A DNA stretch of 64,000 nt from Candidatus Bathyarchaeia archaeon (GCA_049517415.1 JBEKSC010000012.1:1-64000), one strand, 5' to 3'; positions 1 through 10,247 are shown, numbered from the stretch's first letter. Made by a program: numbers and translations. The notes: generated by a model from the sequence alone, not told the origin.

Positions 1-13
1 AAGTATCACTCGG

Positions 14-583
14 GTGCGCCCTCTGGCCGAACATAAAGCGTACATCAACATTGAGAACGTGGTCGCGACAGGTAATCTCCATCAGAATATTGACCTGAAC
101 TCTATTGTCCGCGTATTCCCTGGCGTCGAATATCGGCCTGAACAATTTCCTGGTTTAGTTTATCATTTGAAGAAACCGAAGTCCACTACCTTGATCTTCG
201 GCTCGGGTAAAATGGTCTGTACTGGGTCGAAGTCGGAGCGGCAGGCTCACAAGGCCGTCATGAAGGTTGTGGACGAGCTCAACCGTAACGGGATCGTCAT
301 TCTGGGTAAGCCTGAGATTCAGGTTCAAAACATAGTAGCCTCGGCAGGTTTAGGCGGCCATATTGATTTGGAAAAGGCAACCTACTCACTGAAACGCACC
401 ATGTATGAACCCGAACAGTTCCCTGGCCTTATCTACAGAATGGACGAGCCCAAAGTGGTCATACTAATCTTCGGAAGCGGAAAACTCGTTTGTACGGGCG
501 CCAAGAAAGAGGCGGAGGTTCACAGATCCATCGCAAAACTGCAAGACGCGCTTGAAGAGAAAGAACTCATAACCTACCCGTAA
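14..583 (+). CDS. tbp: TATA-box-binding protein
   Basis: Two direct TBP repeats (NIENVVAT..YxPEQFPGLVY..LIFGSGKMVCTG / QNIVAS..YEPEQFPGLIY..LIFGSGKLVCTG). Confidence 0.97.
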   Translation: MRPLAEHKAYINIENVVATGNLHQNIDLNSIVRVFPGVEYRPEQFPGLVYHLKKPKSTTLIFGSGKMVCTGSKSERQAHKAVMKVVDELNRNGIVILGKPEIQVQNIVASAGLGGHIDLEKATYSLKRTMYEPEQFPGLIYRMDEPKVVILIFGSGKLVCTGAKKEAEVHRSIAKLQDALEEKELITYP

Positions 584-609: not shown

Positions 610-717
610 TGATTGTGCATCGAGAATTGAACCGTTAGGTTTGTCGTTGAAGTGTGTGTGCGCACCACTAGTACCACATACAATAAAACGATGGTTCAAA
701 TTCTATTGCTCGCATAT
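610..717. repeat. Cluster of tRNA-3'-end-like repeat copies (partial minus copy 610-633; plus copy 652-681; plus T-loop copy 693-717)
   Basis: GTGTGTGTGCGCACCACTAGTACCACATAC at 652-681; GGTTCAAATTCTATTGCTCGCATAT at 693-717; GGTTCAATTCTCG on minus strand ending at 633. Confidence 0.8.
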
Positions 718-741
718 TGGCTCAATTGAAAGCGATTTGGA

Positions 742-1239
742 ATGACGACTAACGCACGCGAACATGAGATAGAGATACGAAGACTCGGTGGCAGAGCGGA
801 CGCGGAGATATGCGCTCGTATGATGGCGAATTCGGAGCCTTGGATAACTCTACGACGGGATTGTGATGCGTCTCTGAAGGTTCTGACCGACCCTTCAAGA
901 GAAGTCTACTTAGCCATGGTACGTAATGAGATCGTAGGATTCACTATTCTCACCATGCACGGTGCCTTTGTTGGCTATCTTCAGTCAGTCTGCGTTGCTC
1001 CTCAATGGCGAGGCAAAGGGTTTGGAAGCAAACTGATGGATTACGTTGAGAAGAGAATCCTAAGCGAAACCCCAAACGTGTTCATCTGTGTGTCATCGTT
1101 CAATGGCCGTGTTCAGAGGTTATACGAACGACGCGGCTATGAAGTCGTAGGTGAACTGAAGAACTGGATTGTTCCAGGTCACTCCGAGATTCTACTGAGG
1201 AAAACGATAGCCCCATTGACGGAATTCAAAAGGCAATAA
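742..1239 (+). CDS. GNAT family N-acetyltransferase
   Basis: Acetyl-CoA motif V-APQWRGKGFGSKL, and N..VQRLYERRGY. Confidence 0.93.
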   Translation: MTTNAREHEIEIRRLGGRADAEICARMMANSEPWITLRRDCDASLKVLTDPSREVYLAMVRNEIVGFTILTMHGAFVGYLQSVCVAPQWRGKGFGSKLMDYVEKRILSETPNVFICVSSFNGRVQRLYERRGYEVVGELKNWIVPGHSEILLRKTIAPLTEFKRQ

Positions 1240-1241
1240 CC

Positions 1242-1279
1242 TCGTGTGTGTACGCGCACCAATAGACCCACACACACGA
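1242..1279 (+). repeat. Dispersed repeat copy, hairpin form
   Basis: TCGTGTGTGT-acgcgcaccaatagaccc-ACACACACGA; perfect 10-bp inverted arms around the CGCACCA core. Confidence 0.85.
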
Positions 1280-1351
1280 CTACGTTTGGAACGAGTGTCC
1301 GAAAAGACTCATTAATTTAAACAGATGAGTTCAAGGTGCGAGGTGAAGTGA

Positions 1352-1666
1352 ATGCAGTTTGTCGTTTTTGCCGAGCATCCTCCCGAACTGTGCCCCATGT
1401 CTAACGCAAAGACCCGACAGATGATGAAACAGGGCGCCAAGGAAATGCCCGACCTGGCCAAGAAGTTAGGCGTGAAAATTGTCACGATGAATGTCTACGG
1501 TCCCGAGCACGTCATACTGGCCGTTATGGAAGCTACAGACATCGAGGCTGTCAGGAATTTCATACTACAAAGCAGGCTCATCCAATGGAACACGACCAAA
1601 ATCAATGCCACCTGGTCTTTCGAGGACACCCTGGCAAAATTGGATCAATTACCCACAATATTCTAG
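1352..1666 (+). CDS. GYD/DUF3303-like small alpha/beta protein
   Basis: 104 aa, HPPELCP N-terminus, GAGGTG ribosome-binding site upstream; family by resemblance only. Confidence 0.6.
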   Translation: MQFVVFAEHPPELCPMSNAKTRQMMKQGAKEMPDLAKKLGVKIVTMNVYGPEHVILAVMEATDIEAVRNFILQSRLIQWNTTKINATWSFEDTLAKLDQLPTIF

Positions 1667-1778
1667 CATACGCTGTCTCAGATGAGAAAACCCGACGACT
1701 CGTTTCCCTTTCTTTTTACCAACCTCGATTTCAGTTAATTGGCTCCCATCTAAAGGCAAGTGCGGAAACCGCACTGAC

Positions 1779-1819
1779 GGTTATTGTGTATGTGCGCGCA
1801 CTACTAGACCCACCACCAC
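1779..1819 (+). repeat. Dispersed repeat copy (degenerate)
   Basis: GGTTATTGTGTATGTGCGCGCACTACTAGACCCACCACCAC. Confidence 0.75.
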
Positions 1820-1860
1820 TGTGACCAAAACAGAGAAAATTGGGAGGAGTTGAGTTGGTA

Positions 1861-1900
1861 GCTTCAATTGTGTTGTGTGCGCACCGAGAGTACCACTCAC
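1861..1900 (+). repeat. Dispersed repeat copy (degenerate)
   Basis: GCTTCAATTGTGTTGTGTGCGCACCGAGAGTACCACTCAC. Confidence 0.75.
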
Positions 1901-1905
1901 AGATG

Positions 1906-2133
1906 TCATCGTGGTCGTTTGCCTATTTCGAGGTGAATAAGTTTGTTCCAGTGTCGTTTGCCACAATTAGGGCACTTGACATAATACCAGGCGTAGCCTG
2001 GAATACCTCCGATACCAGCTCTCGCTCCAATAATCCAGCCAATCTTCTCGAATGGAGTGTGACATTGGGCACATCGCAGAGTAAGTTTTGGCGGCAATTT
2101 CATCAGGTCCTTGTTTTCGAGTGAGATCAGCAT
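1906..2133 (-). CDS. Small zinc-ribbon protein
   Basis: CAQC..YVKCPNCGKRHW, two CxxC pairs; fills the gap between two repeat copies. Confidence 0.65.
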   Translation of the reverse strand: MLISLENKDLMKLPPKLTLRCAQCHTPFEKIGWIIGARAGIGGIPGYAWYYVKCPNCGKRHWNKLIHLEIGKRPR

Positions 2134-2145
2134 CCAATTATTTTT

Positions 2146-2188
2146 GTATGTGTGTGGTACTAGTGGTGCGGCCGACCAAATTTGAACC
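2146..2188 (-). repeat. Dispersed repeat copy, best tRNA-like example
   Basis: Minus strand GGTTCAAATTTGGTCGGCCGCACCA-CTAGTACCACACACATAC. Confidence 0.9.
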
Positions 2189-2200
2189 GTAGCCGCTCAG

Positions 2201-2638
2201 TCAACTTGTGGGTGGCCTTAATGGCGTCTTTGGACCGCGTCTTCGATACCAGATTATGAGCAATGCCTCGAACACGAAGACCGCCAAGCCAGTGACGAAA
2301 GATAACGGGAGGACTATGAGGGGAATGAACAACATCAGCCCGAAAAGCCCAATCAGGAAAGTCACGCCGTTGAAGGTCCACAGCCTCGACTCAGGATCCC
2401 GTCCCGCTGCGGCTATAGACATTCCGAGACTGCAACAGATCAGATCCGAGGAAACGATGGACAGTATGCTTACCAGAAGGACGAAGTAGGCGTCAGAATA
2501 CCCTGGCCAGATCTGCGCGCGGAACGACTCGGGAGACTGCAGCATGAGCATCAGCGCTGTAAACGAAAAGCCGGCAAGCAGGCCCGAGACAACGAGGAGC
2601 TGTTCGTGCGGAACACTCTTTTCGGTCGTTTCGCTCAT
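2201..2638 (-). CDS. Hypothetical membrane protein (about 4 TM helices)
   Basis: Four hydrophobic segments; start moved to ATG 2638 (MSETTEK), which lies downstream of a TTTATA box at ~2663-2668 on the minus strand. Confidence 0.7.
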   Translation of the reverse strand: MSETTEKSVPHEQLLVVSGLLAGFSFTALMLMLQSPESFRAQIWPGYSDAYFVLLVSILSIVSSDLICCSLGMSIAAAGRDPESRLWTFNGVTFLIGLFGLMLFIPLIVLPLSFVTGLAVFVFEALLIIWYRRRGPKTPLRPPTS

Positions 2639-2708
2639 GAATTCAAATTCCACCCGTCGAATGTATAAACCTCTCCCGCCGTCGCCATTAGTCGTTAACA
2701 TGATTTTC

Positions 2709-2746
2709 GTGTGTGTACTCGTGGTGCCAGCACTGTAATTTGAACC
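2709..2746 (-). repeat. Dispersed repeat copy
   Basis: Minus strand GGTTCAAATTACAGTGCTGGCACCA-CGAGTACACACAC. Confidence 0.85.
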
Positions 2747-2759
2747 GTCGTTCTAGTTT

Positions 2760-2800
2760 GTGTGTGTGGGTCTAATGGTGCGGGCAACAGAAACTGAACC
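2760..2800 (-). repeat. Dispersed repeat copy, tandem with 2709-2746
   Basis: Minus strand GGTTCAGTTTCTGTTGCCCGCACCA-TTAGACCCACACACAC. Confidence 0.85.
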
Positions 2801-2999
2801 AAGAATCAGCCGATTAGATTCACGCATAGAGACGAATTGAGGTATGTTCATTCTCAGCTTGAATCCTACTTGCTTTCGGCTCACTTTCAGGTTAATTCAA
2901 GCCGAAACCATTATTGGTTGACGGTTCTAAACGAGGGTGTAAAGCTAGCCCGAGGCTCCGCACTGCGTCTACGGGTCATTTCACGATCCAAGCTTCTTA

Positions 3000-3392
3000 T
3001 TGTGCGGGTGCTCTCCGAACGACCCGGTGAATGATGTGTTTGACGATATTGGAGAGATTAGAAGAAGCAGGAAGGAGTATAACCTGAAGATGTTCAGGAG
3101 CGGGGTTGGAACATTCGAAGAACTCGAGAACTTGGAAGCAAATGCACTTCGAGAAGGAGCACTTCCAAAGAAGTACAAGGAATTGATCGGACTGGGAATC
3201 AGCATCTGCGAAAAGTGCTACCCATGTGTCGAGTATCACGTCACCGCAGCCATGGAACTAGGTGCGACACAACAAGAGATTCTCGAAGCTACTGCCGTGG
3301 CTTTGGCAATGGGAGGAGCCGTTTCCGAATGGCCCGCCCGGTTTGTCTTCAAAGTGCTTGATGAACGAGCGCAAGATGTTGCGCAGCACTAG
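3000..3392 (+). CDS. Carboxymuconolactone decarboxylase / AhpD-like protein
   Basis: GALPKKYKELIGLGIS..CYPCVEYH..GATQQEILEA; true start may lie slightly downstream. Confidence 0.88.
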   Translation: MCGCSPNDPVNDVFDDIGEIRRSRKEYNLKMFRSGVGTFEELENLEANALREGALPKKYKELIGLGISICEKCYPCVEYHVTAAMELGATQQEILEATAVALAMGGAVSEWPARFVFKVLDERAQDVAQH

Positions 3393-3450
3393 ACCGGGGA
3401 GCTGTAAGAATTGGTTTTGGTTTTGCACGTGTAAGTTTGGGACGTGTAAA

Positions 3451-3493
3451 GTGTGTGTGTGGTACTAGTGGTGCGAGCGTCGAAATTTGAACC
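3451..3493 (-). repeat. Dispersed repeat copy
   Basis: Minus strand GGTTCAAATTTCGACGCTCGCACCA-CTAGTACCACACACACAC. Confidence 0.9.
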
Positions 3494-3718
3494 ACGGATT
3501 TTCCGTCTGTGCGCGCCAATAAAATTACACCTGCGAAACTGCCTGCAACATACAAGGGCAAGTAACAATAGTCTTGATAGGTGTTCCTTCTCTCAAGGTC
3601 AAGTTCAATTCGCCCAGCTAGAGAGTTGTTCCGTCAAGAACTGCTCCTTTGGATGAAGTTGCGTGGACGAAGTCTGCGATCTTCGGGCGTCATGAATGAG
3701 GTCTACTAGATCGCGGAG

Positions 3719-4018
3719 GTGAGAGATGTTATGAAATTCTTGCTACGATTGCATATGCCAACAGAATCCGGAAACAAACTTCTACAGGACCCCAACTTTC
3801 CAAAGAAACTGGAAGGTGTCCTGAACCAAATAAAGCCTGAAGCAGTATACTTCACTCCAATTGAAGGCGAACGGGGCATCTACATGATAGTCAACCTACC
3901 CAGCGCCGACATGATAGCAACAATAGGCGAACCACTCTGGAATATGTTCAACTGCAAACTAGACCTTCAACCACTCATGGAGCTGAAGGACCTACAACAA
4001 GGACTGCAAAAGAAGTAG
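3719..4018 (+). CDS. DUF3303/GYD-like small protein
   Basis: MKFLL..KPEAVYFT..GERGIYMIV..GEPLW; GGAGGTG ribosome-binding site suggests ATG 3731 as the start. Confidence 0.65.
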   Translation: MRDVMKFLLRLHMPTESGNKLLQDPNFPKKLEGVLNQIKPEAVYFTPIEGERGIYMIVNLPSADMIATIGEPLWNMFNCKLDLQPLMELKDLQQGLQKK

Positions 4019-4108
4019 ATTCACAGTGGGCTCTGCCCCACCCTCTCCCTTTTCCTTCATCATGATTACGAAGACGCCTGCGATTTGAACTGCCGCTTCG
4101 GGCTTTTT

Positions 4109-4149
4109 GTGTGTGTGGTAGGGATGGTGCGAGCAGTGGAATTTGAACC
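4109..4149 (-). repeat. Dispersed repeat copy
   Basis: Minus strand GGTTCAAATTCCACTGCTCGCACCA-TCCCTACCACACACAC. Confidence 0.88.
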
Positions 4150-4194
4150 TCGAAAAGAAATGGGGGAGAGACTCTGGTGCCATGTTACTGAAAC

Positions 4195-4626
4195 TTATTT
4201 CTTGTAGACATTGAGGAGTTGTCTTATTACGAATACTAAGGCGAGACCGAAGATTAGCCACGGGACGTGAAACATGTACTCGGTAAATGCTAGAAGCATC
4301 CAGTTTGGCGGCATTGCGCCTGTGTTATGGAGTCCATCGTGTATCCAGTTCAGGAGTGTGAACCAAAGTGCGATGAAGGAGAGCACTAGGAGCGAACCAC
4401 GAATCTCCCTGGGCCATTTGGAGTAATTCATTCCAAGGTAGATCAAGATTACTATGCCAACTCCGAAGGCTAGGGCGTCCCATATGCTGAGAAATATGAA
4501 GGCTGGAAGCCATGACATCGGCGGCATAGCTGCGGGTGGGAAGATCCTTGGCTGGGTGAATAGAATCACTAAGGCCAATACAGCAGCGACAACTACGAAG
4601 CCAATCTTAGTCGTTCTTGCTGTCAC
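4195..4626 (-). CDS. Hypothetical membrane protein with two intramembrane His motifs
   Basis: 4 TM segments, NWIHDGLH and YMFHVPW; AGGAGGTGA ribosome-binding site upstream. Confidence 0.75.
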   Translation of the reverse strand: MTARTTKIGFVVVAAVLALVILFTQPRIFPPAAMPPMSWLPAFIFLSIWDALAFGVGIVILIYLGMNYSKWPREIRGSLLVLSFIALWFTLLNWIHDGLHNTGAMPPNWMLLAFTEYMFHVPWLIFGLALVFVIRQLLNVYKK

Positions 4627-4780
4627 TTTTTCACCTCCTACTTACTTCACGTTGGGTACTTACTGTCCCTGCATTCCCTTGGAGCTCGGACTAGCAGTCG
4701 AGAACACGGCGATGAATCGCAGCAAGCTCAAGTGAACTGCGGCGAAGTAGGTAGTTATCGCTTGCCATTCCGTAAGGCAT

Positions 4781-4822
4781 GGTTGGGTGTTTGCGTGTGT
4801 GCACACCAGCTATCCCACCTAC
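4781..4822 (+). repeat. Dispersed repeat copy (highly degenerate)
   Basis: GGTTGGGTGTTTGCGTGTGTGCACACCAGCTATCCCACCTAC. Confidence 0.5.
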
Positions 4823-4914
4823 CACCCCCAAAAACGACTTAACTTGCGGAACAGTGACGCCGTGTCGGAGCGAGGTCAGAAAATTGGTTGCTAATTCTAG
4901 CCTGGAAGTACAGC

Positions 4915-5781
4915 TTAACGTTTTGATCCCACGAGGTAGATTGCAACGAGGACCAGAGCGCCACCGAGCATTAGCGATGGGGTTACTTGTTCACCTAAGA
5001 AAATTATCCCCATGATTGGAGCCAGAACAGGGACAACGAGTTGGACAAGCCCTCCGAGAGATGCAGGTATTTTATTTACTGTGGCGTTCCACAGAACATA
5101 GCTGAGCGCCGTACTGATCATACCCATGTACAGCGCTAGCCCAAGGTTCTGAATGGAAATGTTGGTAGAAATCGGCTGACCTAGAAGTGCAAGCGCTACC
5201 GAACTAATAATGGCGAATGTTCCCAAAATCAAGAAACTATTGTACGTGTAACTGAACGTTACCGTGAAATTCCTACCATACGCGGAATACAATCCCCACG
5301 ATACGCCGGTCCCGGCCATCAGAAGAATGCCAAGTAGAGTAACGGAGCTTATCTTGCCGAAAGTTATGACCAGGACCCCGGCTATGCCCAGGAGCTGTCC
5401 CAAGACTAAACGCGGTGTCAACTGTTCTTTGTCTACTAGCACAGAATAGGTCGCCATTGCTAGGACTACGAAGGTATAGAAGATGAAAGTTCCCGCAGCT
5501 ACGGATATGAAAACGTATCCGTAAGATATCGAAAACGCGTACGCCCCCAAGAAGAATGCGCCAGGCAGGTAGGAGGCGTTCGGCTTATCATGATGGAAGG
5601 TCTTCGGCCGCACAGATGCAAGGATCGAGAGGGTGGCTAGTCCGCTGACGAACCTGATTACGGTAAGGAGAAAGGGTGAGACTCGGCCTAGCAAGACCAG
5701 GTATCTTGTTATTACGCTGTTAGAAGCGAAGAATGTCATTATCACTAGTAGAGTAATCCAAACCTGAAGGTCTTTCTTCAT
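4915..5781 (-). CDS. DMT/EamA family transporter
   Basis: About 10 TM, two EamA repeats, LSYVLWN..PIMGIIFLGEQVT. Confidence 0.9.
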   Translation of the reverse strand: MKKDLQVWITLLVIMTFFASNSVITRYLVLLGRVSPFLLTVIRFVSGLATLSILASVRPKTFHHDKPNASYLPGAFFLGAYAFSISYGYVFISVAAGTFIFYTFVVLAMATYSVLVDKEQLTPRLVLGQLLGIAGVLVITFGKISSVTLLGILLMAGTGVSWGLYSAYGRNFTVTFSYTYNSFLILGTFAIISSVALALLGQPISTNISIQNLGLALYMGMISTALSYVLWNATVNKIPASLGGLVQLVVPVLAPIMGIIFLGEQVTPSLMLGGALVLVAIYLVGSKR

Positions 5782-5849
5782 TTCCTCGAGTCGCCGTCTT
5801 CGACCAGAATCTTTTCACGAATATAACCGAATCCTGGATGACCCTCTTT

Positions 5850-5889
5850 GGTTCAATTTCTGCCGTTCGCACCAGCTCTCCGTGTACAC
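5850..5889 (+). repeat. Dispersed repeat copy
   Basis: GGTTCAATTTCTGCCGTTCGCACCA (25-nt geometry intact), degenerate tail. Confidence 0.8.
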
Positions 5890-6011
5890 TTTGCAGTTCG
5901 GAAGAGAGTCACGAATCTCTGTTCGTATGCTTTCGTTGCGTTGCCACGTCGCGTGCACACGCGCGTCTCTTCCAATCATGTTAAACTCAAGATCTGCTCC
6001 GGCTGAACTGG

Positions 6012-6962
6012 TTATTTTTGATACGTTTCGCTTTGGTTGACAGGGCTTTTATGCTTGATGAACGTCCCGTTTCGGTATTCTTCAAACGCTACTCTTAGCT
6101 CATCTTGAGTATTCATTACTATAGGGCCGTACCATGCTACCGGCTCGTGAATTGGTTTTCCCGATATTAGTAGGAATCTCACTGCTTCATCGACGCTTGT
6201 AAAAGCCAATTGATCGCCTTCGTCGAAGATGATTACGTTTTCTGGTCCAATCAGGCAATCTCGTTTGAAATCGAAATAGTTGATGCCTTCGATTTCATAT
6301 GCGTATGGATCTCGTTCTTGGTCGAAGTAAGCTCTTCCTTCGATCACATATGCGAAGACTACATGGCCAGTTTTCACTGTATGCGTGAATTTCGAGTTAT
6401 TGGGAATTGTAACATCTAGGTACTCTGGGTCAGTAACGATATCGCGGACCGGTCCTTTGATACCATTCACTTCACCCGAGATGATTCGCACTTCGGCGCC
6501 ACCATCCACAATAACCGTTGTGATTTGATTACTCGCGATCTCTCGATAGCGCGGATCCATCATCTTGTGAGAAGCGGGTAGGTTGGCCCAAAGCTGAAAA
6601 CCTGACATTGATCCGTCTTTTTCTCCCTGAGGCATTTCTTGGTGAATTATCCCACTCCCCGCAGTCATCCACTGCACGTCGCCTGAACGAATCACTCCTT
6701 TGTTGCCCATGCTGTCTCCATGTTCAACCTCACCACGCAGAACGTAGGTTATGGTTTCAATGCCGCGATGCGGGTGCCAAGGAAAACCCTCGATATAGTC
6801 GGCAGGATTGTTGGAATGGAAATCATCCAGCAAAAGAAACGGATCCAACTCCGGAGCTTGATAGAAAGTGAAAGCTCTCTTTAACCGCACGCCAGCCCCT
6901 TCAACGGTGGCTCTACTCTTCAGTATTCTCTTGATCTTCTTAACGCCACTCATTTCGTCCAT
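6012..6962 (-). CDS. Pirin family protein
   Basis: DPFLLLD..GFPWHPHRGIETITY..QWMTAGSGIIHQE..GPIVMN. Confidence 0.96.
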   Translation of the reverse strand: MDEMSGVKKIKRILKSRATVEGAGVRLKRAFTFYQAPELDPFLLLDDFHSNNPADYIEGFPWHPHRGIETITYVLRGEVEHGDSMGNKGVIRSGDVQWMTAGSGIIHQEMPQGEKDGSMSGFQLWANLPASHKMMDPRYREIASNQITTVIVDGGAEVRIISGEVNGIKGPVRDIVTDPEYLDVTIPNNSKFTHTVKTGHVVFAYVIEGRAYFDQERDPYAYEIEGINYFDFKRDCLIGPENVIIFDEGDQLAFTSVDEAVRFLLISGKPIHEPVAWYGPIVMNTQDELRVAFEEYRNGTFIKHKSPVNQSETYQK

Positions 6963-7031
6963 CGATCCTAGCTATCCTTGAATAAGTCGATAAGAGTTCT
7001 GGTTCATTTGGTGACACAGTTCTTTCCCTCT

Positions 7032-7054
7032 GTGTGTGCTCACCATTAGACCCA
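7032..7054 (+). repeat. Dispersed repeat copy (partial)
   Basis: GTGTGTGCTCACCATTAGACCCA; GGTTCATTT at 7001. Confidence 0.7.
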
Positions 7055-7284
7055 GCTTCCGTTCTATCCGTTCATCGAACTCTCGCATGCGTGGGTCGTG
7101 TTGTCTTCCGGATTGGACGCATTGACCTAGAATCCAACGAGCACGCTTCGAACTCTTCCTGCCGATATTTCCTCTCTACTCCCCCAAGATCACTGATTTG
7201 GGAATAGAGTTTACACTTGCTCCAGGCGGGGGTGAGGGTGAGAGAAAAAAAGGTGTAGAGAAGGTTGAGAATATTTTGGGTGTT

Positions 7285-7704
7285 CTACTTGTAGGTTTTC
7301 AGGTTGGCGTTGTCTTCGTTGAAGACCATTTCAAACATGCCCAAGACTGCTTTCTTGGTTGACGCGTCGTCCATGCCTTGTGCATAGAAGTCTCCTTCCA
7401 CCACGACTTTGGTCTTGTTTCCCATCGGGGTGTATGTGTGTGTATTTCTGGAGCCTTTCATTGGTCCGGAGAGGACTTCGGTGGAGTGTCCTTTGGGTGG
7501 GTTCATGGTCATCTTCCAAGTTTCCGTGTGCGAGGATCCGTCCGGGTGCTTCACTTCGAGTTCGACCGTCATGCCTTTGTCCGATTGTTCGAGGACTTTG
7601 GTGAATTTCACTGCGCTATGTACATGGCCGGTATCGTCGTTGATATACTTCCAAACCTTCTCTAAGGGTGCGTCGAAGACGCCTTCGTCTGTTACGTGTA
7701 CCAT
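7285..7704 (-). CDS. SRPBCC/polyketide cyclase-like protein
   Basis: FDAPLEKVWKYI pattern; start taken at ATG 7704 (MVHVTDEG); T-tract downstream at ~7244-7251. Confidence 0.7.
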   Translation of the reverse strand: MVHVTDEGVFDAPLEKVWKYINDDTGHVHSAVKFTKVLEQSDKGMTVELEVKHPDGSSHTETWKMTMNPPKGHSTEVLSGPMKGSRNTHTYTPMGNKTKVVVEGDFYAQGMDDASTKKAVLGMFEMVFNEDNANLKTYK

Positions 7705-7897
7705 TTTAGGTCGAAAGGGGATTGCTATCTCGCACATTTAAGGGCTATGCAATTCTCTTTTATGGCAGCTCGAAGTCTGCAATCTGCAAATTTCCGTGTT
7801 CTTCCCCTAATCTGCTAGGAGCAGCTGGATGAGTAATTTCCTCAATTAGTCCGCACGCCTACTCCTAACGCACCCAGCCGATCGATGCATGCGAATT

Positions 7898-8638
7898 TCA
7901 GTTTGCCATTGGGAGGATTCTTTTCATGGTGCTGCGAAACGGTGGGAATGCCCTCTTGCTCTGACTGAGCTTCAATTTGATTAGTAGCTCGCACGTTTTG
8001 AGTCCGACAATGGCTGGGTCGATAACCGGCACGGCCAATTTGTCGGATAACTCGCTCGTGACACCAACCATGTTACCACACCCAAGAATTAGAACATCCG
8101 CGCCATCCTCTTTGATCGCTTTGCGTCCTTCCTCAAGAAGTCTCTCGATCATTTTATCGCGGTTCGCCCGCAGCTGCACGGCTGGAATATCAATCGACCG
8201 GATTGATGCACATCGGGACCTCATCTCGTAGAGTTGCATCATATGCTCAGTCATTGGTATAGTACTTTCCAAAGCGCTCAAATACGAAAACCTTCGTCCG
8301 AGCATGCAAGCGAGATGAAGGGCCGGCTCCATTAGGCCCACGACCGGAATTCTTAATCTCTCCTTGGCACCGTAAACGCCAGGATCATCCGCGCAAAACA
8401 TGACGACTCCGTCGTACTTCTCTTCGTCTAGGCGGTCTATCTTCTCTGCAATGTGACTCAGCATCAAATCTGTAGCGAAATGAGTTTCCACCGACTCGAC
8501 TCCTTGATCCATACAGACGACTTCTAATTCAGTATCATGATCCTTTACGGGTTCATACGCGTCTTGCACCATCTTTACAAGATCTACATCGGTCACAGGA
8601 ACTGGTACAATAACGAGAATCTTCATTGCGGGACACAC
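7898..8638 (-). CDS. Asp/Glu/hydantoin racemase family protein
   Basis: DGVVMFCADDPG..GADVLILGCGNM..PVIDP. Confidence 0.9.
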   Translation of the reverse strand: MCPAMKILVIVPVPVTDVDLVKMVQDAYEPVKDHDTELEVVCMDQGVESVETHFATDLMLSHIAEKIDRLDEEKYDGVVMFCADDPGVYGAKERLRIPVVGLMEPALHLACMLGRRFSYLSALESTIPMTEHMMQLYEMRSRCASIRSIDIPAVQLRANRDKMIERLLEEGRKAIKEDGADVLILGCGNMVGVTSELSDKLAVPVIDPAIVGLKTCELLIKLKLSQSKRAFPPFRSTMKRILPMAN

Positions 8639-8718
8639 AGTCGCTTTGCCGCAATATATTTGGCGGAGTTACTTGTGATTTGCGGTATCTTGTCTCACCG
8701 TTTGGTGTGCCCCCATAA

Positions 8719-8790
8719 TTCTATGGGCACAGGAATTTGAACCATCGCCGTTCGTCGTAGGCAAAATGCGCGTGGGTCTAATAGTGCGGA
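8719..8790 (-). repeat. Two partial dispersed repeat copies
   Basis: Minus strand GGTTCAAATTCCTGTGCCCA (8724-8743) and TCCGCACTATTAGACCCACGCGC (8768-8790). Confidence 0.7.
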
Positions 8791-8811
8791 CATGGATATC
8801 TAGTCTAGGAT

Positions 8812-9027
8812 TTAGCGTTCGACTTTGAAACCGATCCTCACGACCGCTTGGAATTGACTCACTTTGCCTTCCTTGATGGATCCTCTGAACTGGGTTGCTT
8901 CGAACCATTGCATTTGCTTGACGGTCTTCCCTGCTTCTTCAACGGCGTTTCTAACTGCGTTCGCAAAGCTCTCATTTGATTCACCAATGACCTCGATAAT
9001 CTTCCAAACCAAATCGCTCACCCCCAT
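8812..9027 (-). CDS. Dodecin (flavin-binding)
   Basis: VWKIIEVIGES..AVRNAVEEA.KTV..QWFE..QAVVRIGFKVE. Confidence 0.93.
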   Translation of the reverse strand: MGVSDLVWKIIEVIGESNESFANAVRNAVEEAGKTVKQMQWFEATQFRGSIKEGKVSQFQAVVRIGFKVER

Positions 9028-9118
9028 AAACCAAACAGTTGCATGATCGTCCAGACCTGCTATTTGTGTGTGTCACACAGCTATGGTCTGAGCAAATGAG
9101 TGCAGCGGGTTCATCAAA

Positions 9119-9146
9119 GAGTGCAGGGGGCTGGATTTGAACCCAC
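9119..9146 (-). other. Isolated tRNA 3'-end fragment (Leu-like acceptor), possible att remnant
   Basis: Minus strand GTGGGTTCAAATCCAGCCCCCTGCACTC; no 5' half (GCAGGGG..) seen upstream. Confidence 0.6.
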
Positions 9147-9302: not shown

Positions 9303-10247
9303 TCAGAGCTTTTTCACAACTTCGTCTGCGAATAGCTCTAATGCCTGAAGCTCTCTGTCGGGTTCGAGGTTCACAATTAAGTATTCTACCCCCACATCCC
9401 TGAAAGCTTCGACCTGCCGCCGCACCTCTTCAGGTGTCCCATAAATCGCGTACTCTAGACGCACGTACTCCTGGCGCCTAACCTCCGACATGTTCTTGAC
9501 CGCTTCCGCCAATTTCTCCTTATCCTTCTCAATCACTATGCGGCCAACCTTCGATTTGACAATTGAATCGTAATCTCTACCAACCGAACGACAATGTCCT
9601 CTCAAAACCCCAAACTTCTTTTTCACCGTCTCCACAGAGCCGAAAATATTGCAAGCGTCAGCGTACTTTGCCACGATCTTGAGCGTCCGCCGCTCTCCGC
9701 CCCCACCAATCATGATCGGGGGATGAGGTTTCTGAATCGGTTTCGGGTTGCAGTATGCGTCGCGTACTTGGTAAAATTTCCCGCTGAACGTTGCGCTTTC
9801 CTCCGTCCACATTTTCCTGATTATTTGCACTGCCTCTTCGAGGCGTTGCATCCTTTCCTTTACAGGTGGAAATGGGATTCCGTAAGCTGTGGCCTCATCT
9901 ACATTCCAAGCAGCGCCGATCCCCATGATTAGCCTACCCTTGCTTAGGACATCGAGAGTCGCGCCCATCTTAGCGAGAACCGAAGGATGCCTGTACACGA
10001 TTCCAGTAACGAGGGTACCAAGCTTGATTTTCTCCGTCAATCCCGCAACAACGGCCTGAGTTGTCCAACTTTCAAGTATCGGCTCTTGAAGTTGGCCGGC
10101 ACTTCGGATTTGGTGGAAGTGATCCATAACCCAGAACGAGTCGAAACCAAGTTTCTCAGCCCTCTGCGCAAGCGTTCTTAGCTTTTCGACGACTTCGGCG
10201 CCTTGCCCGTCGAATGTGAAGTTGGGATGTTGCAGGCCGAACTTCAA
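9303..10247 (-). CDS. LLM class F420-dependent oxidoreductase
   Basis: GFDSFWVMDHFHQI..LDVLSKGRLIMGIGAAW..PKPIQKPHPPIMIGGGGE. Confidence 0.93.
   Translation of the reverse strand: MKFGLQHPNFTFDGQGAEVVEKLRTLAQRAEKLGFDSFWVMDHFHQIRSAGQLQEPILESWTTQAVVAGLTEKIKLGTLVTGIVYRHPSVLAKMGATLDVLSKGRLIMGIGAAWNVDEATAYGIPFPPVKERMQRLEEAVQIIRKMWTEESATFSGKFYQVRDAYCNPKPIQKPHPPIMIGGGGERRTLKIVAKYADACNIFGSVETVKKKFGVLRGHCRSVGRDYDSIVKSKVGRIVIEKDKEKLAEAVKNMSEVRRQEYVRLEYAIYGTPEEVRRQVEAFRDVGVEYLIVNLEPDRELQALELFADEVVKKL

What the first reader, a model, noticed from the sequence alone, without database searches (positions are those of the whole stretch)
610..9146. Candidate archaeal gene-cassette array: single accessory genes separated by degenerate tRNA-3'-end-derived sites
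Seen: nearly every intergenic gap from tbp to the LLM gene (all but SRPBCC/racemase) carries 1-3 copies of one ~40-bp element, about 16 full or partial copies. Six copies keep an exact 25-nt frame from GGTTCA to GCACCA while the middle varies: GGTTCAAATTTGGTCGGCCGCACCA (2164-2188), GGTTCAAATTACAGTGCTGGCACCA (2722-2746), GGTTCAGTTTCTGTTGCCCGCACCA (2776-2800), GGTTCAAATTTCGACGCTCGCACCA (3469-3493), GGTTCAAATTCCACTGCTCGCACCA (4125-4149), GGTTCAATTTCTGCCGTTCGCACCA (5850-5874). Most continue into a shared non-tRNA tail, (CTAGTA/TTAGAC)CCACACAC. The genes between copies are short, unrelated, stress/detox-type and mixed in orientation. Known: 25 nt is the distance from tRNA position 52 through the T-loop and discriminator to CCA; CGGCCGC-A-CCA resembles archaeal tRNA-Gly ends as I recall them; archaeal tyrosine integrases use tRNA 3' ends as att sites; GNAT and small unknown genes are typical integron cargo. 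Inference: these are recombination sites, or scars, of an integron- or pdif-like cassette-capture system evolved from a tRNA att site, with the recombinase acting in trans since none is in the window. Alternatives are a tRNA-derived SINE/REP-like dispersed repeat or a protein-binding site.
Basis: partly seen in the sequence, partly recalled or inferred. Interest (0 to 1): 0.9.

Follow-up and report, generated by a model that had tools for sequence, protein, structure and literature searches.

The report
Gene cassettes at casposon landing sites
This stretch of an uncultured peat archaeon's genome is a stack of small, mostly one-gene inserts, each bounded by a copy of the tRNA-tail-like landing site of a Cas1-type transposase, so it may show such enzymes building gene arrays much as CRISPR builds spacer arrays.

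Summary
The repeat is real and far above chance: 11 core matches in the window against 0.38 expected. It is clustered in the genome and confined to one Bathyarchaeia genus.

Its anatomy matches the experimentally defined target of family-2 casposases (Cas1 transposases). TTCAAAT lies exactly 9 nt before CGCA in 97 of 107 T-loop-bearing copies. A 14-nt segment, CGCACCA plus 7 variable bases, follows, and then the (CA)n end of the neighbouring unit (PMC6614799, PMC6977970).

- A real tRNA-Arg(UCU) gene with this 3' end has a (CA)n-ended insert starting exactly 14 nt after CGCA in 9 of 21 genus genomes.
- One such insert is a 731-nt, one-gene unit with 13 of 14 matching flanking repeats.
- Casposase genes lie inside element clusters elsewhere in this genome.
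- The window's cassettes recur singly in other species, with junctions at the repeat.

Caveats: the window's units lack matching flanking repeats, and the array is unchanged in 20 public runs. Earlier notes of this scan reached a casposon reading on other contigs of this genome.

The parts
2..583 (+). tbp paralogue (TATA-binding protein). It lies inside the array, with elements on both sides once contig C39 is joined.
   Evidence: Pfam TBP, E 1.5e-61. C39 overlaps the window start by 127 nt and carries elements at C39:261-361.
617..714 (.). Compound junction. It holds an inverted arm piece (617-636, minus strand) and a form B site. In the form B site GTGTGTGTG ends at 660, the 14-mer CGCACCACTAGTAC is 661-674 and CACATACA starts at 675. 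An arm without a core follows at 688-714.
742..1239 (+). Cargo: GNAT acetyltransferase.
   Evidence: Pfam Acetyltransf_1, E 5.7e-15. An 89% nt homologue stands alone in G015.
1241..1277 (+). Form B site, 14-mer 1255-1268 (CGCACCAATAGACC).
1352..1666 (+). Cargo: 104-aa protein with no Pfam family.
1777..1902 (+). Two form B-like sites, with 14-mers at 1797-1810 and 1880-1893, around a 69-nt (CA)-ended filler.
1906..2133 (-). Cargo: 75-aa zinc-ribbon-like protein. The roughly 270-nt unit starts with CACACACA and ends with CTGTG(A/T)GTG.
   Evidence: Weak Pfam Zn_ribbon_PaaD match. The same unit occurs in G019, in G016 and on own contig C50, behind different arms and 14-mers.
2147..2192 (-). Form A site: arm 2171-2190, 14-mer 2157-2170, (CA)n 2150-2156.
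2201..2701 (-). Cargo: 166-aa hydrophobic protein with no Pfam family. An arm starts 9 nt after its stop codon.
2709..2801 (-). Two tandem form A sites, at 2709-2750 (degenerate core) and 2758-2801 (14-mer 2769-2782).
3000..3392 (+). Cargo: carboxymuconolactone decarboxylase family (CMD) protein.
   Evidence: Pfam CMD, E 3.9e-16.
3452..3495 (-). Form A site, 14-mer 3462-3475.
   Evidence: Homology to G017 ends exactly at the end of its (CA)n tail.
3719..4018 (+). Cargo: 99-aa protein with no Pfam family.
   Evidence: An 86% nt homologue in G017 is again flanked by elements.
4075..4150 (-). Arm fragment (4075-4090), then a form A site at 4108-4150 with 14-mer 4118-4131.
4195..4626 (-). Cargo: 143-aa hydrophobic protein. 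It keeps the arm behind its stop codon in G002, G003 and G017 as well as in this genome.
4786..4822 (+). Form B-like site, 14-mer 4802-4815 (CACACCAGCTATCC).
4915..5781 (-). Cargo: EamA-family transporter.
   Evidence: Pfam EamA, E 6.9e-26. A 94% nt copy in G014 starts right after a form A site.
5849..5875 (+). Arm plus CGCACCA with no (CA)n behind it. It may be an unused or decayed landing pad.
6012..6962 (-). Cargo: pirin.
   Evidence: Pfam Pirin and Pirin_C. Its homologues in G002 and G003 have no elements nearby.
7029..7054 (+). Form B-like site, 14-mer 7039-7052 (CTCACCATTAGACC).
7285..8638 (-). Two-gene segment with no site between the genes: SRPBCC/polyketide-cyclase-like (7285-7737) and Asp/Glu racemase (7898-8638).
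8725..8791 (-). Site with the long end form. It reads 14-mer 8775-8788, then CACGCGCA, TTTTGCCT, ACGACGAACGGCGAT and the arm (8725-8747).
8812..9027 (-). Cargo: dodecin.
   Evidence: Pfam Dodecin, E 1.2e-23. Copies at 95% and 92% nt identity in G004 and G016 end at the same GTGTGTGT.
9060..9146 (.). Degenerate form B-like piece (about 9060-9090) and a tRNA-like arm on the minus strand (9110-9146). This is the last piece before the LLM gene.
   Evidence: Read and junctions. Neither was picked up by the profiles at E<=1.

Best explanation
The repeat is the landing site of a family-2-like casposase (a Cas1-type transposase), fused to the end of whatever was inserted there.

Form A has three parts:
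- a 'leader' that mimics the T-loop and acceptor end of a tRNA (GGTTCAAAT, 5 variable bases, TGCC);
- the 14-bp segment that the enzyme would duplicate (CGCACCA plus 7 variable bases);
- the (CA)n terminus of the inserted unit.

Form B is the junction of two neighbouring units: ...GTGTGTG, then the 14-mer, then CACACAC....

Window 610-9146, continuing upstream on contig C39, is a stack of at least 12 small casposase-less units of 0.3-2 kb with one or two cargo genes each. Many units carry a landing pad of their own (an arm behind the cargo gene or within a long end sequence), so later units could land in or beside earlier ones.

The enzyme would act in trans. Intact casposase genes lie at C3:145166-146398 and C8:20750-21964.

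Shown here: the site geometry, the use of a real tRNA gene as target, the casposase linkage, the independent assortment at the site, and one 8.6-kb and one 0.7-kb unit with matching flanking repeats.

Inferred: that each small unit of this window was itself moved by the casposase. The mixed orientations and unlike 14-mers would then come from later excision and reinsertion, or from recombination between sites.
For: 1. Geometry. Of 243 distinct cores, 107 have a T-loop-like motif upstream. In 97 of those 107, TTCAAAT ends exactly 9 nt before CGCA. Information is high at GGTTCAAAT, CGCACCA and CCACACAC and low in between.

2. Published determinants, passages read:
- The A. boonei casposase needs TCAAATC at -15 to -9 and the first two bases of a 14-15-bp duplication. 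Only the last 5 nt of the element end are required (PMC6614799).
- M. mazei casposons make 14-bp duplications that begin 5'-CGCA and overlap the last 4 bp of tRNA-Leu. The target needs about 30 bp of upstream tRNA (PMC6977970, PMC4779613).
- The element maps onto this base for base.

3. Real target. The tRNA gene at C1:120543-120671, Arg(UCU) by ARAGORN, ends TTCAAATC, 8 nt, CGCA, CCA.
- 21 of 23 genus genomes have this end.
- In 9 of those 21, a (CA)-type terminus starts exactly at +15. In 11 it does not, and 1 is doubtful.
- The inserts differ between species. Relatives form a series of no unit (G021, G010), one unit (G014, G018) and both units (G000).
- In G016 a 731-nt unit with one 168-aa ORF sits at the tRNA between 14-mers identical at 13 of 14 positions.

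4. Enzyme.
- There are four Cas1 (PF01867) hits, two of them intact. The C8 protein matches the M. mazei casposase 6OPM at E 4e-69, against 4.5e-21 for the best CRISPR Cas1.
- All 5 of 5 Cas1 matches in this genome lie within 3 kb of an element, against 8.3% of random 1-kb windows.
- The 8.6-kb element C3:143155-151769 carries an intact cas1. It is flanked by an identical 25-nt direct repeat (14-mer CGCACCACTATACC plus CACACACACAC). It sits between a form A leader and an older element with a cas1 fragment.

5. Modularity.
- Window cassettes have 72-95% nt homologues one at a time at unrelated places in other species. In 7 of the 14 loci fetched they are again flanked by elements at the homology boundary.
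- In 153 instances, pairs that share the left flank stop at core position 321-323. Pairs that share the right flank start at 301, or at 284 when both are form A.
- The variable 7-mer follows the left flank, and the right-hand unit begins at CACACAC.

6. In vivo work in M. mazei (PMC10359463, passages):
- artificial mini-casposons of cargo plus ends move in trans;
- excision leaves one site;
- an element can carry its own target copy along, even reverse-complemented.
- This could explain unlike and inverted 14-mers.
Against: - There is no general duplication signature. Of 39 adjacent same-orientation pairs of cores, only 2 have identical variable 7-mers (random pairs 2.7%). Mean differences are 3.6 against 3.9. 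In the window the best pairs differ at 2 and 3 of 14 positions.
- Orientation is mixed. The zinc-ribbon unit is flanked by inverted, not direct, 14-mers in two genomes.
- The common termini are only about 9 nt of (CA)n. A longer shared end (ACGACGAACGAC motif plus arm) is seen in 37 of 242 left ends and 13 of 84 right ends.
- There is no casposase in the window. Five genus genomes with 13-47 copies gave no Cas1 match (G005, G007, G013, G016, G018). Only about 7 of 23 have an intact gene. G016, which holds the clean 731-nt example, is one of those without.
- Nucleotide homology among 11 cas1 loci is confined to cas1 itself, so no complete autonomous element could be delimited by comparison.
- The window's array is the same in 20 runs of 18 studies dated 2014-2025. 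Contigs bridge the sites without change, so there is no sign of current movement.
- BLAST extends through the conserved core, so the exact junction within it is inferred from the variable bases of a few pairs only.
- Four cargo genes (GNAT, CMD, pirin, SRPBCC) have homologues elsewhere with no elements nearby.
Confidence: 0.6

Rival explanations
1. The repeats are leftovers (solo ends and target copies) of full casposons. They are now a dispersed REP/MITE-like family. The genes between them are ordinary host or island genes that were never moved as units, and the shuffling seen between species comes from general recombination between the short repeats.
For: - Flanking 14-mers do not match: 2 of 39 pairs are identical.
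- Orientations are mixed.
- The array is static in 20 runs.
- Many genomes have copies but no casposase.
- Some cargo genes also occur elsewhere without elements.
- In complete relatives the copies lie in many small groups around the chromosome, not in one platform.
Against: - Units as small as 270-730 nt recur with both ends intact in different contexts.
- A one-gene unit at the real tRNA has 13 of 14 matching direct repeats.
- The junctions are sharp at one point of a 21-nt core in every one-sided pair seen, 12 left-sharing and 7 right-sharing.
- Repeats of 21-45 nt are short substrates for general recombination. For M. mazei at least 800 bp is quoted in PMC10359463; this is not known for Bathyarchaeia.
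Confidence: 0.22
2. An integron-like or pdif-like system is at work, in which a tyrosine recombinase (an integrase or XerA) exchanges circular one-gene cassettes by conservative recombination at a tRNA-derived att core.
For: - Flanks assort independently at a short conserved core.
- Form B has dyad symmetry (GTGTGTG ... CACACAC).
- Tyrosine recombinase genes exist in the genome, at C2:121567-122337, C9:18588-19643 and broken ones on C16.
- Cargo is of the accessory kind.
Against: - No PF00589 hit lies next to an array in G000. The C9 gene is 1.4 kb from one weak copy and sits beside a cas1 fragment.
- G018, 98% complete with 40 copies, has no PF00589 hit at E<=0.001.
- The conserved blocks coincide with casposase determinants, not with two inverted arms 6-8 bp apart.
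- A search of the paper library for integrons + Archaea + attC + Bathyarchaeota found 0 papers.
Confidence: 0.07
3. The repeat is a regulatory or structural signal that works in place, such as a terminator, promoter element, protein-binding site or small RNA, and has nothing to do with mobility.
For: - It is strongly intergenic: 69 of 95 copies lie outside crude ORF calls that cover 88% of the genome.
- The tail is often followed by a T-run.
- The sequence is conserved across the genus.
Against: - There is no constant orientation towards the flanking genes. From 4786 to 7054 all copies are antisense to every gene.
- No Rfam family or tRNA was called.
- By eye, no strand complementary to the acceptor part lies upstream, so there is no minihelix (not computed).
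- The reading does not explain the one-sided flank sharing or the inserts at the real tRNA.
Confidence: 0.04

Closest known systems
Family 2 casposons (Methanosarcina mazei MetMaz-C1 and relatives; Aciduliprofundum boonei AciBoo-C1)
   Same: - The Cas1-type integrase is closest to the solved M. mazei casposase.
- The target is the 3' end of a tRNA gene or a look-alike.
- The T-loop motif sits at -15 to -9.
- The 14-bp duplicated segment begins CGCA.
- Tandem stacking at one target occurs.
(Papers read in passages.)
   Different: - No family B polymerase was found in the one delimited 8.6-kb element: 10 of its 12 non-cas1 ORFs were scanned, none hit PolB.
- Most units carry no casposase at all and only one or two unrelated cargo genes.
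- The ends are short (CA)n.
- Landing pads are carried inside the units.
- Each genome has dozens of site copies.
Artificial mini-casposons of M. mazei (PMC10359463)
   Same: They consist of cargo flanked only by ends and target copies, and are moved in trans by Cas1solo. An element's own target copy can be carried to the new site (passages).
   Different: Those are laboratory constructs. Here the units are natural, numerous and carry host-type genes. Their movement is inferred, not observed.
Integron gene-cassette arrays (IntI, attI, attC)
   Same: Both are arrays of mostly single, promoter-poor accessory genes in mixed company. Each unit has its own variable site sharing a short conserved core. 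Cassettes are found singly in other contexts.
   Different: There is no IntI next to the arrays. Orientation is mixed. The site resembles a tRNA end and a casposase target. There are many small clusters instead of one platform.
CRISPR arrays (leader, repeat, spacer; Cas1-Cas2)
   Same: The enzyme is a Cas1-family integrase. A leader motif lies upstream of a short repeated segment. The newest insert in the C3 example lies next to the leader.
   Different: The inserts are gene-sized and have defined (CA)n ends. The repeats are 14 nt and not kept identical. There is no Cas2, no regular spacing, and no evidence of transcripts used as guides.
REP/BIME elements and MITEs
   Same: They are short, genus-specific, intergenic and multi-copy, often in tandem or inverted pairs.
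   Different: No Y1 (RAYT-type) transposase was found. Sites bound whole genes that recur elsewhere. The sequence matches a known integrase target.

Membership tests
Family 2 casposon | Encodes a Cas1-type casposase of the family-2 kind | tested here: met
   Met for the genome, not for the window. C8:20750-21964 matches 6OPM at E 4.3e-69 over residues 36-403 and Pfam Cas_Cas1 at E 1.2e-51. No cas1 lies in window 1-64000.
Family 2 casposon | Target is a tRNA 3' end or look-alike, with a leader motif upstream of the duplicated segment | tested here: met
   The spacing is fixed in 97 of 107 copies. The real tRNA-Arg(UCU) end is occupied at +15 in 9 of 21 genomes. Determinants were taken from PMC6614799 and PMC6977970.
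Family 2 casposon | 14-15-bp target site duplication flanking the element | tested here: inconclusive
   Met for the 8.6-kb cas1 element on C3 (14 of 14, within a 25-nt identical repeat) and for the 731-nt unit in G016 (13 of 14). Not met for the window's units, whose best pairs differ at 2-3 of 14, and not met in general (2 of 39 pairs).
Family 2 casposon | Terminal inverted repeats | tested here: inconclusive
   Both sides of form B start CACACACAC in the consensus, but this is only about 9 nt of simple sequence. The longer shared end occurs in a minority (37 of 242 and 13 of 84).
Family 2 casposon | Family B DNA polymerase in the element (self-synthesising) | tested here: not met
   None of the 10 ORFs scanned in C3:143155-151769 hit a polymerase family. 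Two small ORFs were not scanned. The window's units hold one or two unrelated genes.
Integron | IntI tyrosine recombinase beside the array | tested here: not met
   PF00589 hits in G000 are on C2, C16, C3:21782 and C9, none beside an array. G018 has none.
Integron | attC sites (imperfect palindromes with the integron core sites) | not tested
   No attC model was run. The consensus does not look like the attC core as I recall it, and that recall is only a lead.
pdif / Xer modules | 28-bp sites with two inverted arms around a 6-bp centre, acted on by Xer recombinases | tested here: not met
   In form B the symmetric (GT)n/(CA)n arms are 14-16 nt apart. A relative rich in copies has no PF00589 hit.
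REP/RAYT | Y1 (HUH) transposase partner in the genome | tested here: not met
   PF01797 gave no match in G000. The control search matched in 6 of 14 known genomes.
tRNA gene or tRNA-like RNA | Cloverleaf or minihelix fold | tested here: not met
   ARAGORN found 0 genes and Rfam 0 families in the window. By eye there is no upstream complement to the acceptor strand.

The most novel reading that the evidence does not exclude
A Cas1 casposase serves here as the engine of a natural gene-cassette system. Small units consist of one cargo gene, (CA)n ends and a built-in copy of the tRNA-like landing pad. They are captured one after another at a leader-like site, so the array extends itself. In function this would be an integron analogue. 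In form it would be a living intermediate between a transposon target and a CRISPR array (leader, short repeated segment, inserts), with genes in place of spacers.
Probability: 0.35. Interest if true: 0.85.

Novelty: new variant of a known kind. Interest (0 to 1): 0.62.

Why it matters
Casposons are described in the reviews I read as large, self-replicating transposons that always carry a DNA polymerase (PMC6452270, passages). They are known from a few copies per genome.

Here a whole genus carries dozens of copies of the casposase target. These bound small polymerase-less and mostly casposase-less units whose cargo is ordinary accessory genes, and even a TATA-binding protein paralogue.

If the units are moved in trans, three things follow:
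- It would be a new route of gene capture and exchange in archaea.
- It would be a natural counterpart of the laboratory mini-casposon.
- It would be a concrete model for how a Cas1 integrase, a leader-like motif and a short duplicated segment can build an array, which is the step assumed in scenarios for the origin of CRISPR.

It also gives a testable target with a defined leader, 14-mer and ends for an uncultured group.

My paper searches found no description of natural non-autonomous casposons or of casposons in Bathyarchaeia. 'Casposon' plus 'non-autonomous' gave 14 papers, of which I read passages of 2. 'Casposon' plus 'Bathyarchaeota' gave 1 paper, seen as a listing only. Subscription journals are not covered by that library.

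Tried and rejected
- tRNA and RNA-family scans of the window found nothing.
- A tRNA-like minihelix was rejected by eye, since no complementary 5' strand is present. It was not folded.
- A promoter or terminator role was rejected because orientation towards genes is inconsistent.
- Virus origin: 0 matches in viral contigs.
- Tyrosine recombinase, Y1 transposase and serine recombinase as partners: not adjacent or absent.
- Synteny of the tbp-to-LLM stretch in 9 relatives: only tbp is shared, so no locus-level gain/loss map could be made there.
- Delimiting the autonomous element by aligning 11 cas1 loci failed, because only cas1 itself aligns at nucleotide level. Four small ORF families recur upstream in 4-5 loci and have no Pfam family.
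- A general test for target duplications was negative.
- Public runs: no RNA holder is listed. The contig joints at the sites all have short sides of 21-40 nt and come from other loci that share the repeat. They are not deletions or circles of this array.
- The 168-aa protein of the G016 unit has no similarity to the window's small proteins.
- The 95-nt repeat at 7055-7148 does not fold better than shuffles.
- The empty and filled sites at the tRNA in G014, G018, G000 and G019 are old. Their right junctions are too decayed to show a duplication.

Full report
**What is there**

The window is the first 64 kb of contig C12 of a 2.65-Mb, 59-contig genome. Record titles of matching public contigs name Candidatus Bathyarchaeia from peat and soil.

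The shared tail is far above chance: 11 matches in the window against 0.38 expected.

The repeat has two forms:
- Form A is GGTTCAAAT, 5 variable bases, TGCC, then the core CGCACCA-NTAG-NMC-CACACAC.
- Form B has GTGTGTG(CG) in place of the tRNA-like arm.

Profiles find 16 pieces between 617 and 8791. Every gene gap from tbp to the LLM gene has at least one piece, except SRPBCC/racemase.

The genes between them are, in order:
- a GNAT acetyltransferase, a CMD-family protein, an EamA transporter, pirin, an SRPBCC protein, a racemase and dodecin;
- a zinc-ribbon-like 75-aa protein;
- four small proteins with no family.

The array goes on upstream. Contig C39 overlaps the window start by 127 nt and has more copies around a DEAD-box helicase, a CBS protein and others. 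The tbp paralogue is therefore inside the array.

**Distribution**

Genome-wide there are 95 profile hits (E<=0.05) on 17 of 59 contigs. Of these, 69 of 95 lie outside crude ORF calls that cover 88% of the genome. Only 8.3% of random 1-kb windows lie within 3 kb of a hit, so the copies are clustered, often at contig ends.

In the genus, 21 of 22 other genomes have the core, with up to 54 copies. Outside the genus, 2 of 18 genomes have a single 2-mismatch match each. A scan of one genome per prokaryote species found 93 loci. Of the 80 rows shown, 74 are titled Bathyarchaeia, Bathyarchaeota or 'archaeon RBG_16_50_20'. The other 6 carry other names, five of them on contigs of 2-15 kb. Viral contigs gave none.

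**The sites are junctions**

Nothing downstream of tbp is syntenic in nine relatives. Yet the window's cassettes have 72-95% nucleotide homologues, one at a time, at unrelated places in other species. In 7 of 14 loci fetched, the homology ends at or next to an element there too.

I compared 153 distinct instances with 300-nt flanks all against all:
- Pairs that share only the left flank stop at core positions 321-323.
- Pairs that share only the right flank start at 301, or at 284 when both are form A.
- Forms A and B can precede the same right-hand unit.
- The variable 7 bases follow the left flank. The right-hand unit begins at CACACAC.

**Which enzyme**

Tyrosine recombinases are not beside the arrays. 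A 98%-complete relative with 40 copies has none detectable. Y1 and serine recombinases are absent.

Earlier notes of this scan on other contigs of this genome pointed to casposons, and I tested that lead:
- Cas1 hits lie at C3:145166-146398 and C8:20750-21964 (both intact), with fragments at C3:142340-142978 and C9:17612-18217 and a weak match at C37:4667-4999.
- All five are within 3 kb of an element.
- The C8 protein matches the solved M. mazei casposase 6OPM at E 4e-69, against 4.5e-21 for the best CRISPR Cas1.

**Geometry against published biochemistry**

In 97 of 107 copies with a T-loop-like motif, TTCAAAT ends exactly 9 nt before CGCA. This puts TCAAATN at -15 to -9 and CGCA at +1 to +4 of a 14-mer that ends just before CACACAC.

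- The A. boonei casposase needs TCAAATC at -15 to -9 and the first two bases of a 14-15-bp duplication. It needs only the last five bases of the element end (PMC6614799, passages).
- M. mazei casposons make 14-bp duplications that begin CGCA and overlap the last 4 bp of tRNA-Leu. The target needs about 30 bp of upstream tRNA (PMC6977970 and PMC4779613, passages).

The conserved and variable blocks of the repeat fit these determinants.

**A real tRNA target**

The gene at C1:120543-120671, Arg(UCU) by ARAGORN, ends TTCAAATC, 8 nt, CGCA, CCA. This end is present in 21 of 23 genus genomes.
- In 9 of those 21, a (CA)-type terminus starts exactly at +15. In 11 it does not, and one is doubtful.
- The inserts differ between species.
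- The downstream flank of the empty sites (G021, G010) resumes about 0.7 kb later in G014 and 0.8 kb later in G019. G000 holds the G014 unit followed by a unit that G018 has alone. Those junctions are decayed.
- In G016 a 731-nt unit with one 168-aa membrane-protein ORF, (CA)-rich ends and a degenerate pad sits at the tRNA between 14-mers identical at 13 of 14 positions. A further unit follows it.

**A casposase-bearing element**

C3:143155-151769 (8.6 kb) contains cas1 plus ORFs without a polymerase family (10 scanned). It is flanked by an identical 25-nt repeat, CGCACCACTATACC plus CACACACACAC. It lies between a form A leader and an older element with a cas1 fragment. The newest insert is therefore next to the leader.

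**What does not fit**

- Adjacent same-orientation cores share the variable 7-mer in only 2 of 39 pairs, which is the random level. In the window the best flanking pairs differ at 2-3 of 14 positions.
- The zinc-ribbon unit is flanked by inverted 14-mers in two genomes.
- Five genomes rich in copies show no Cas1.
- Cas1 loci share only cas1 at nucleotide level.
- The window's array is unchanged in 20 runs of 18 studies from 2014 to 2025.

The M. mazei in vivo study reports that excision leaves one site. It also reports that an element can bring its own target copy to a new site, even reverse-complemented, and it proposes a circular intermediate (PMC10359463, passages). That would blur duplications and explain inversions, but here it is an inference.

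**Verdict**

The cassette-array idea is partly right. The most likely engine is a casposase acting in trans on small natural 'mini-casposons' that carry their own landing pads (confidence 0.6).

The main rival is that the repeats are relic ends and targets, with later shuffling by general recombination (0.22).

This is a new variant of a known kind. Other contigs of this genome were read the same way earlier in this scan.

Noticed in passing
window 2-583; other genomes of the genus: TBP genes are multi-copy in this genus, with up to 7 matches per genome (6 in G000). The copy in this window has 88-93% identical counterparts that are again close to elements in G014, G018, G011, G008 and G007. 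A basal transcription factor paralogue thus appears to travel with these sites.
   Followed up: partly
G000 contigs C48:1-105 and C39:1-127 versus window 478-583 and 1-127: C48 shares 105 identical bases with the end of tbp and then diverges at the stop codon, so it is an alternative haplotype or strain. The same loose end is seen in run X2. C39 is the upstream continuation of the window.
   Followed up: partly
window 7055-7148: A roughly 95-nt stretch just after the form B site has 84-88% identical copies at 4-5 places each in G002 and G003 and one on own contig C11. It does not fold better than shuffles. It is a separate small repeat family.
   Followed up: partly
G000 whole genome: ARAGORN in default mode finds only 8 tRNA genes. 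With introns allowed it finds 30, nearly all of them interrupted. Rfam tRNA gives 18 hits. Most tRNA genes encode their CCA.
   Followed up: partly
L069, L080, L088, L136, L137 (other genomes of the genus): A third kind of left arm, a GGC/GGCGG-rich run directly before CGCACCA, occurs in several loci.
   Followed up: no
G013 contigs C6, C18, C29 (L154, L162, L165): Three contigs of one genome carry the same tRNA-Arg 3' end and 14-mer but two different (CA)n-ended continuations. This may be strain-level insertion polymorphism or an assembly duplicate.
   Followed up: no
window 4860-5500: Runs X17 and X10 hold a second version of the EamA gene with many single-base differences beside the window's version. 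A related strain appears to coexist.
   Followed up: no
window 9303-10247 and genome-wide: The luciferase-like monooxygenase has 18 matches in G000 and 6-29 per genome in the genus. This is a large paralogous family.
   Followed up: no
G000 C16:40177-43707: Split tyrosine-integrase pieces lie beside a 444-aa ORF that looks to me like a phage terminase large subunit. That reading is by eye and was not tested. The region may be a decayed provirus.
   Followed up: no
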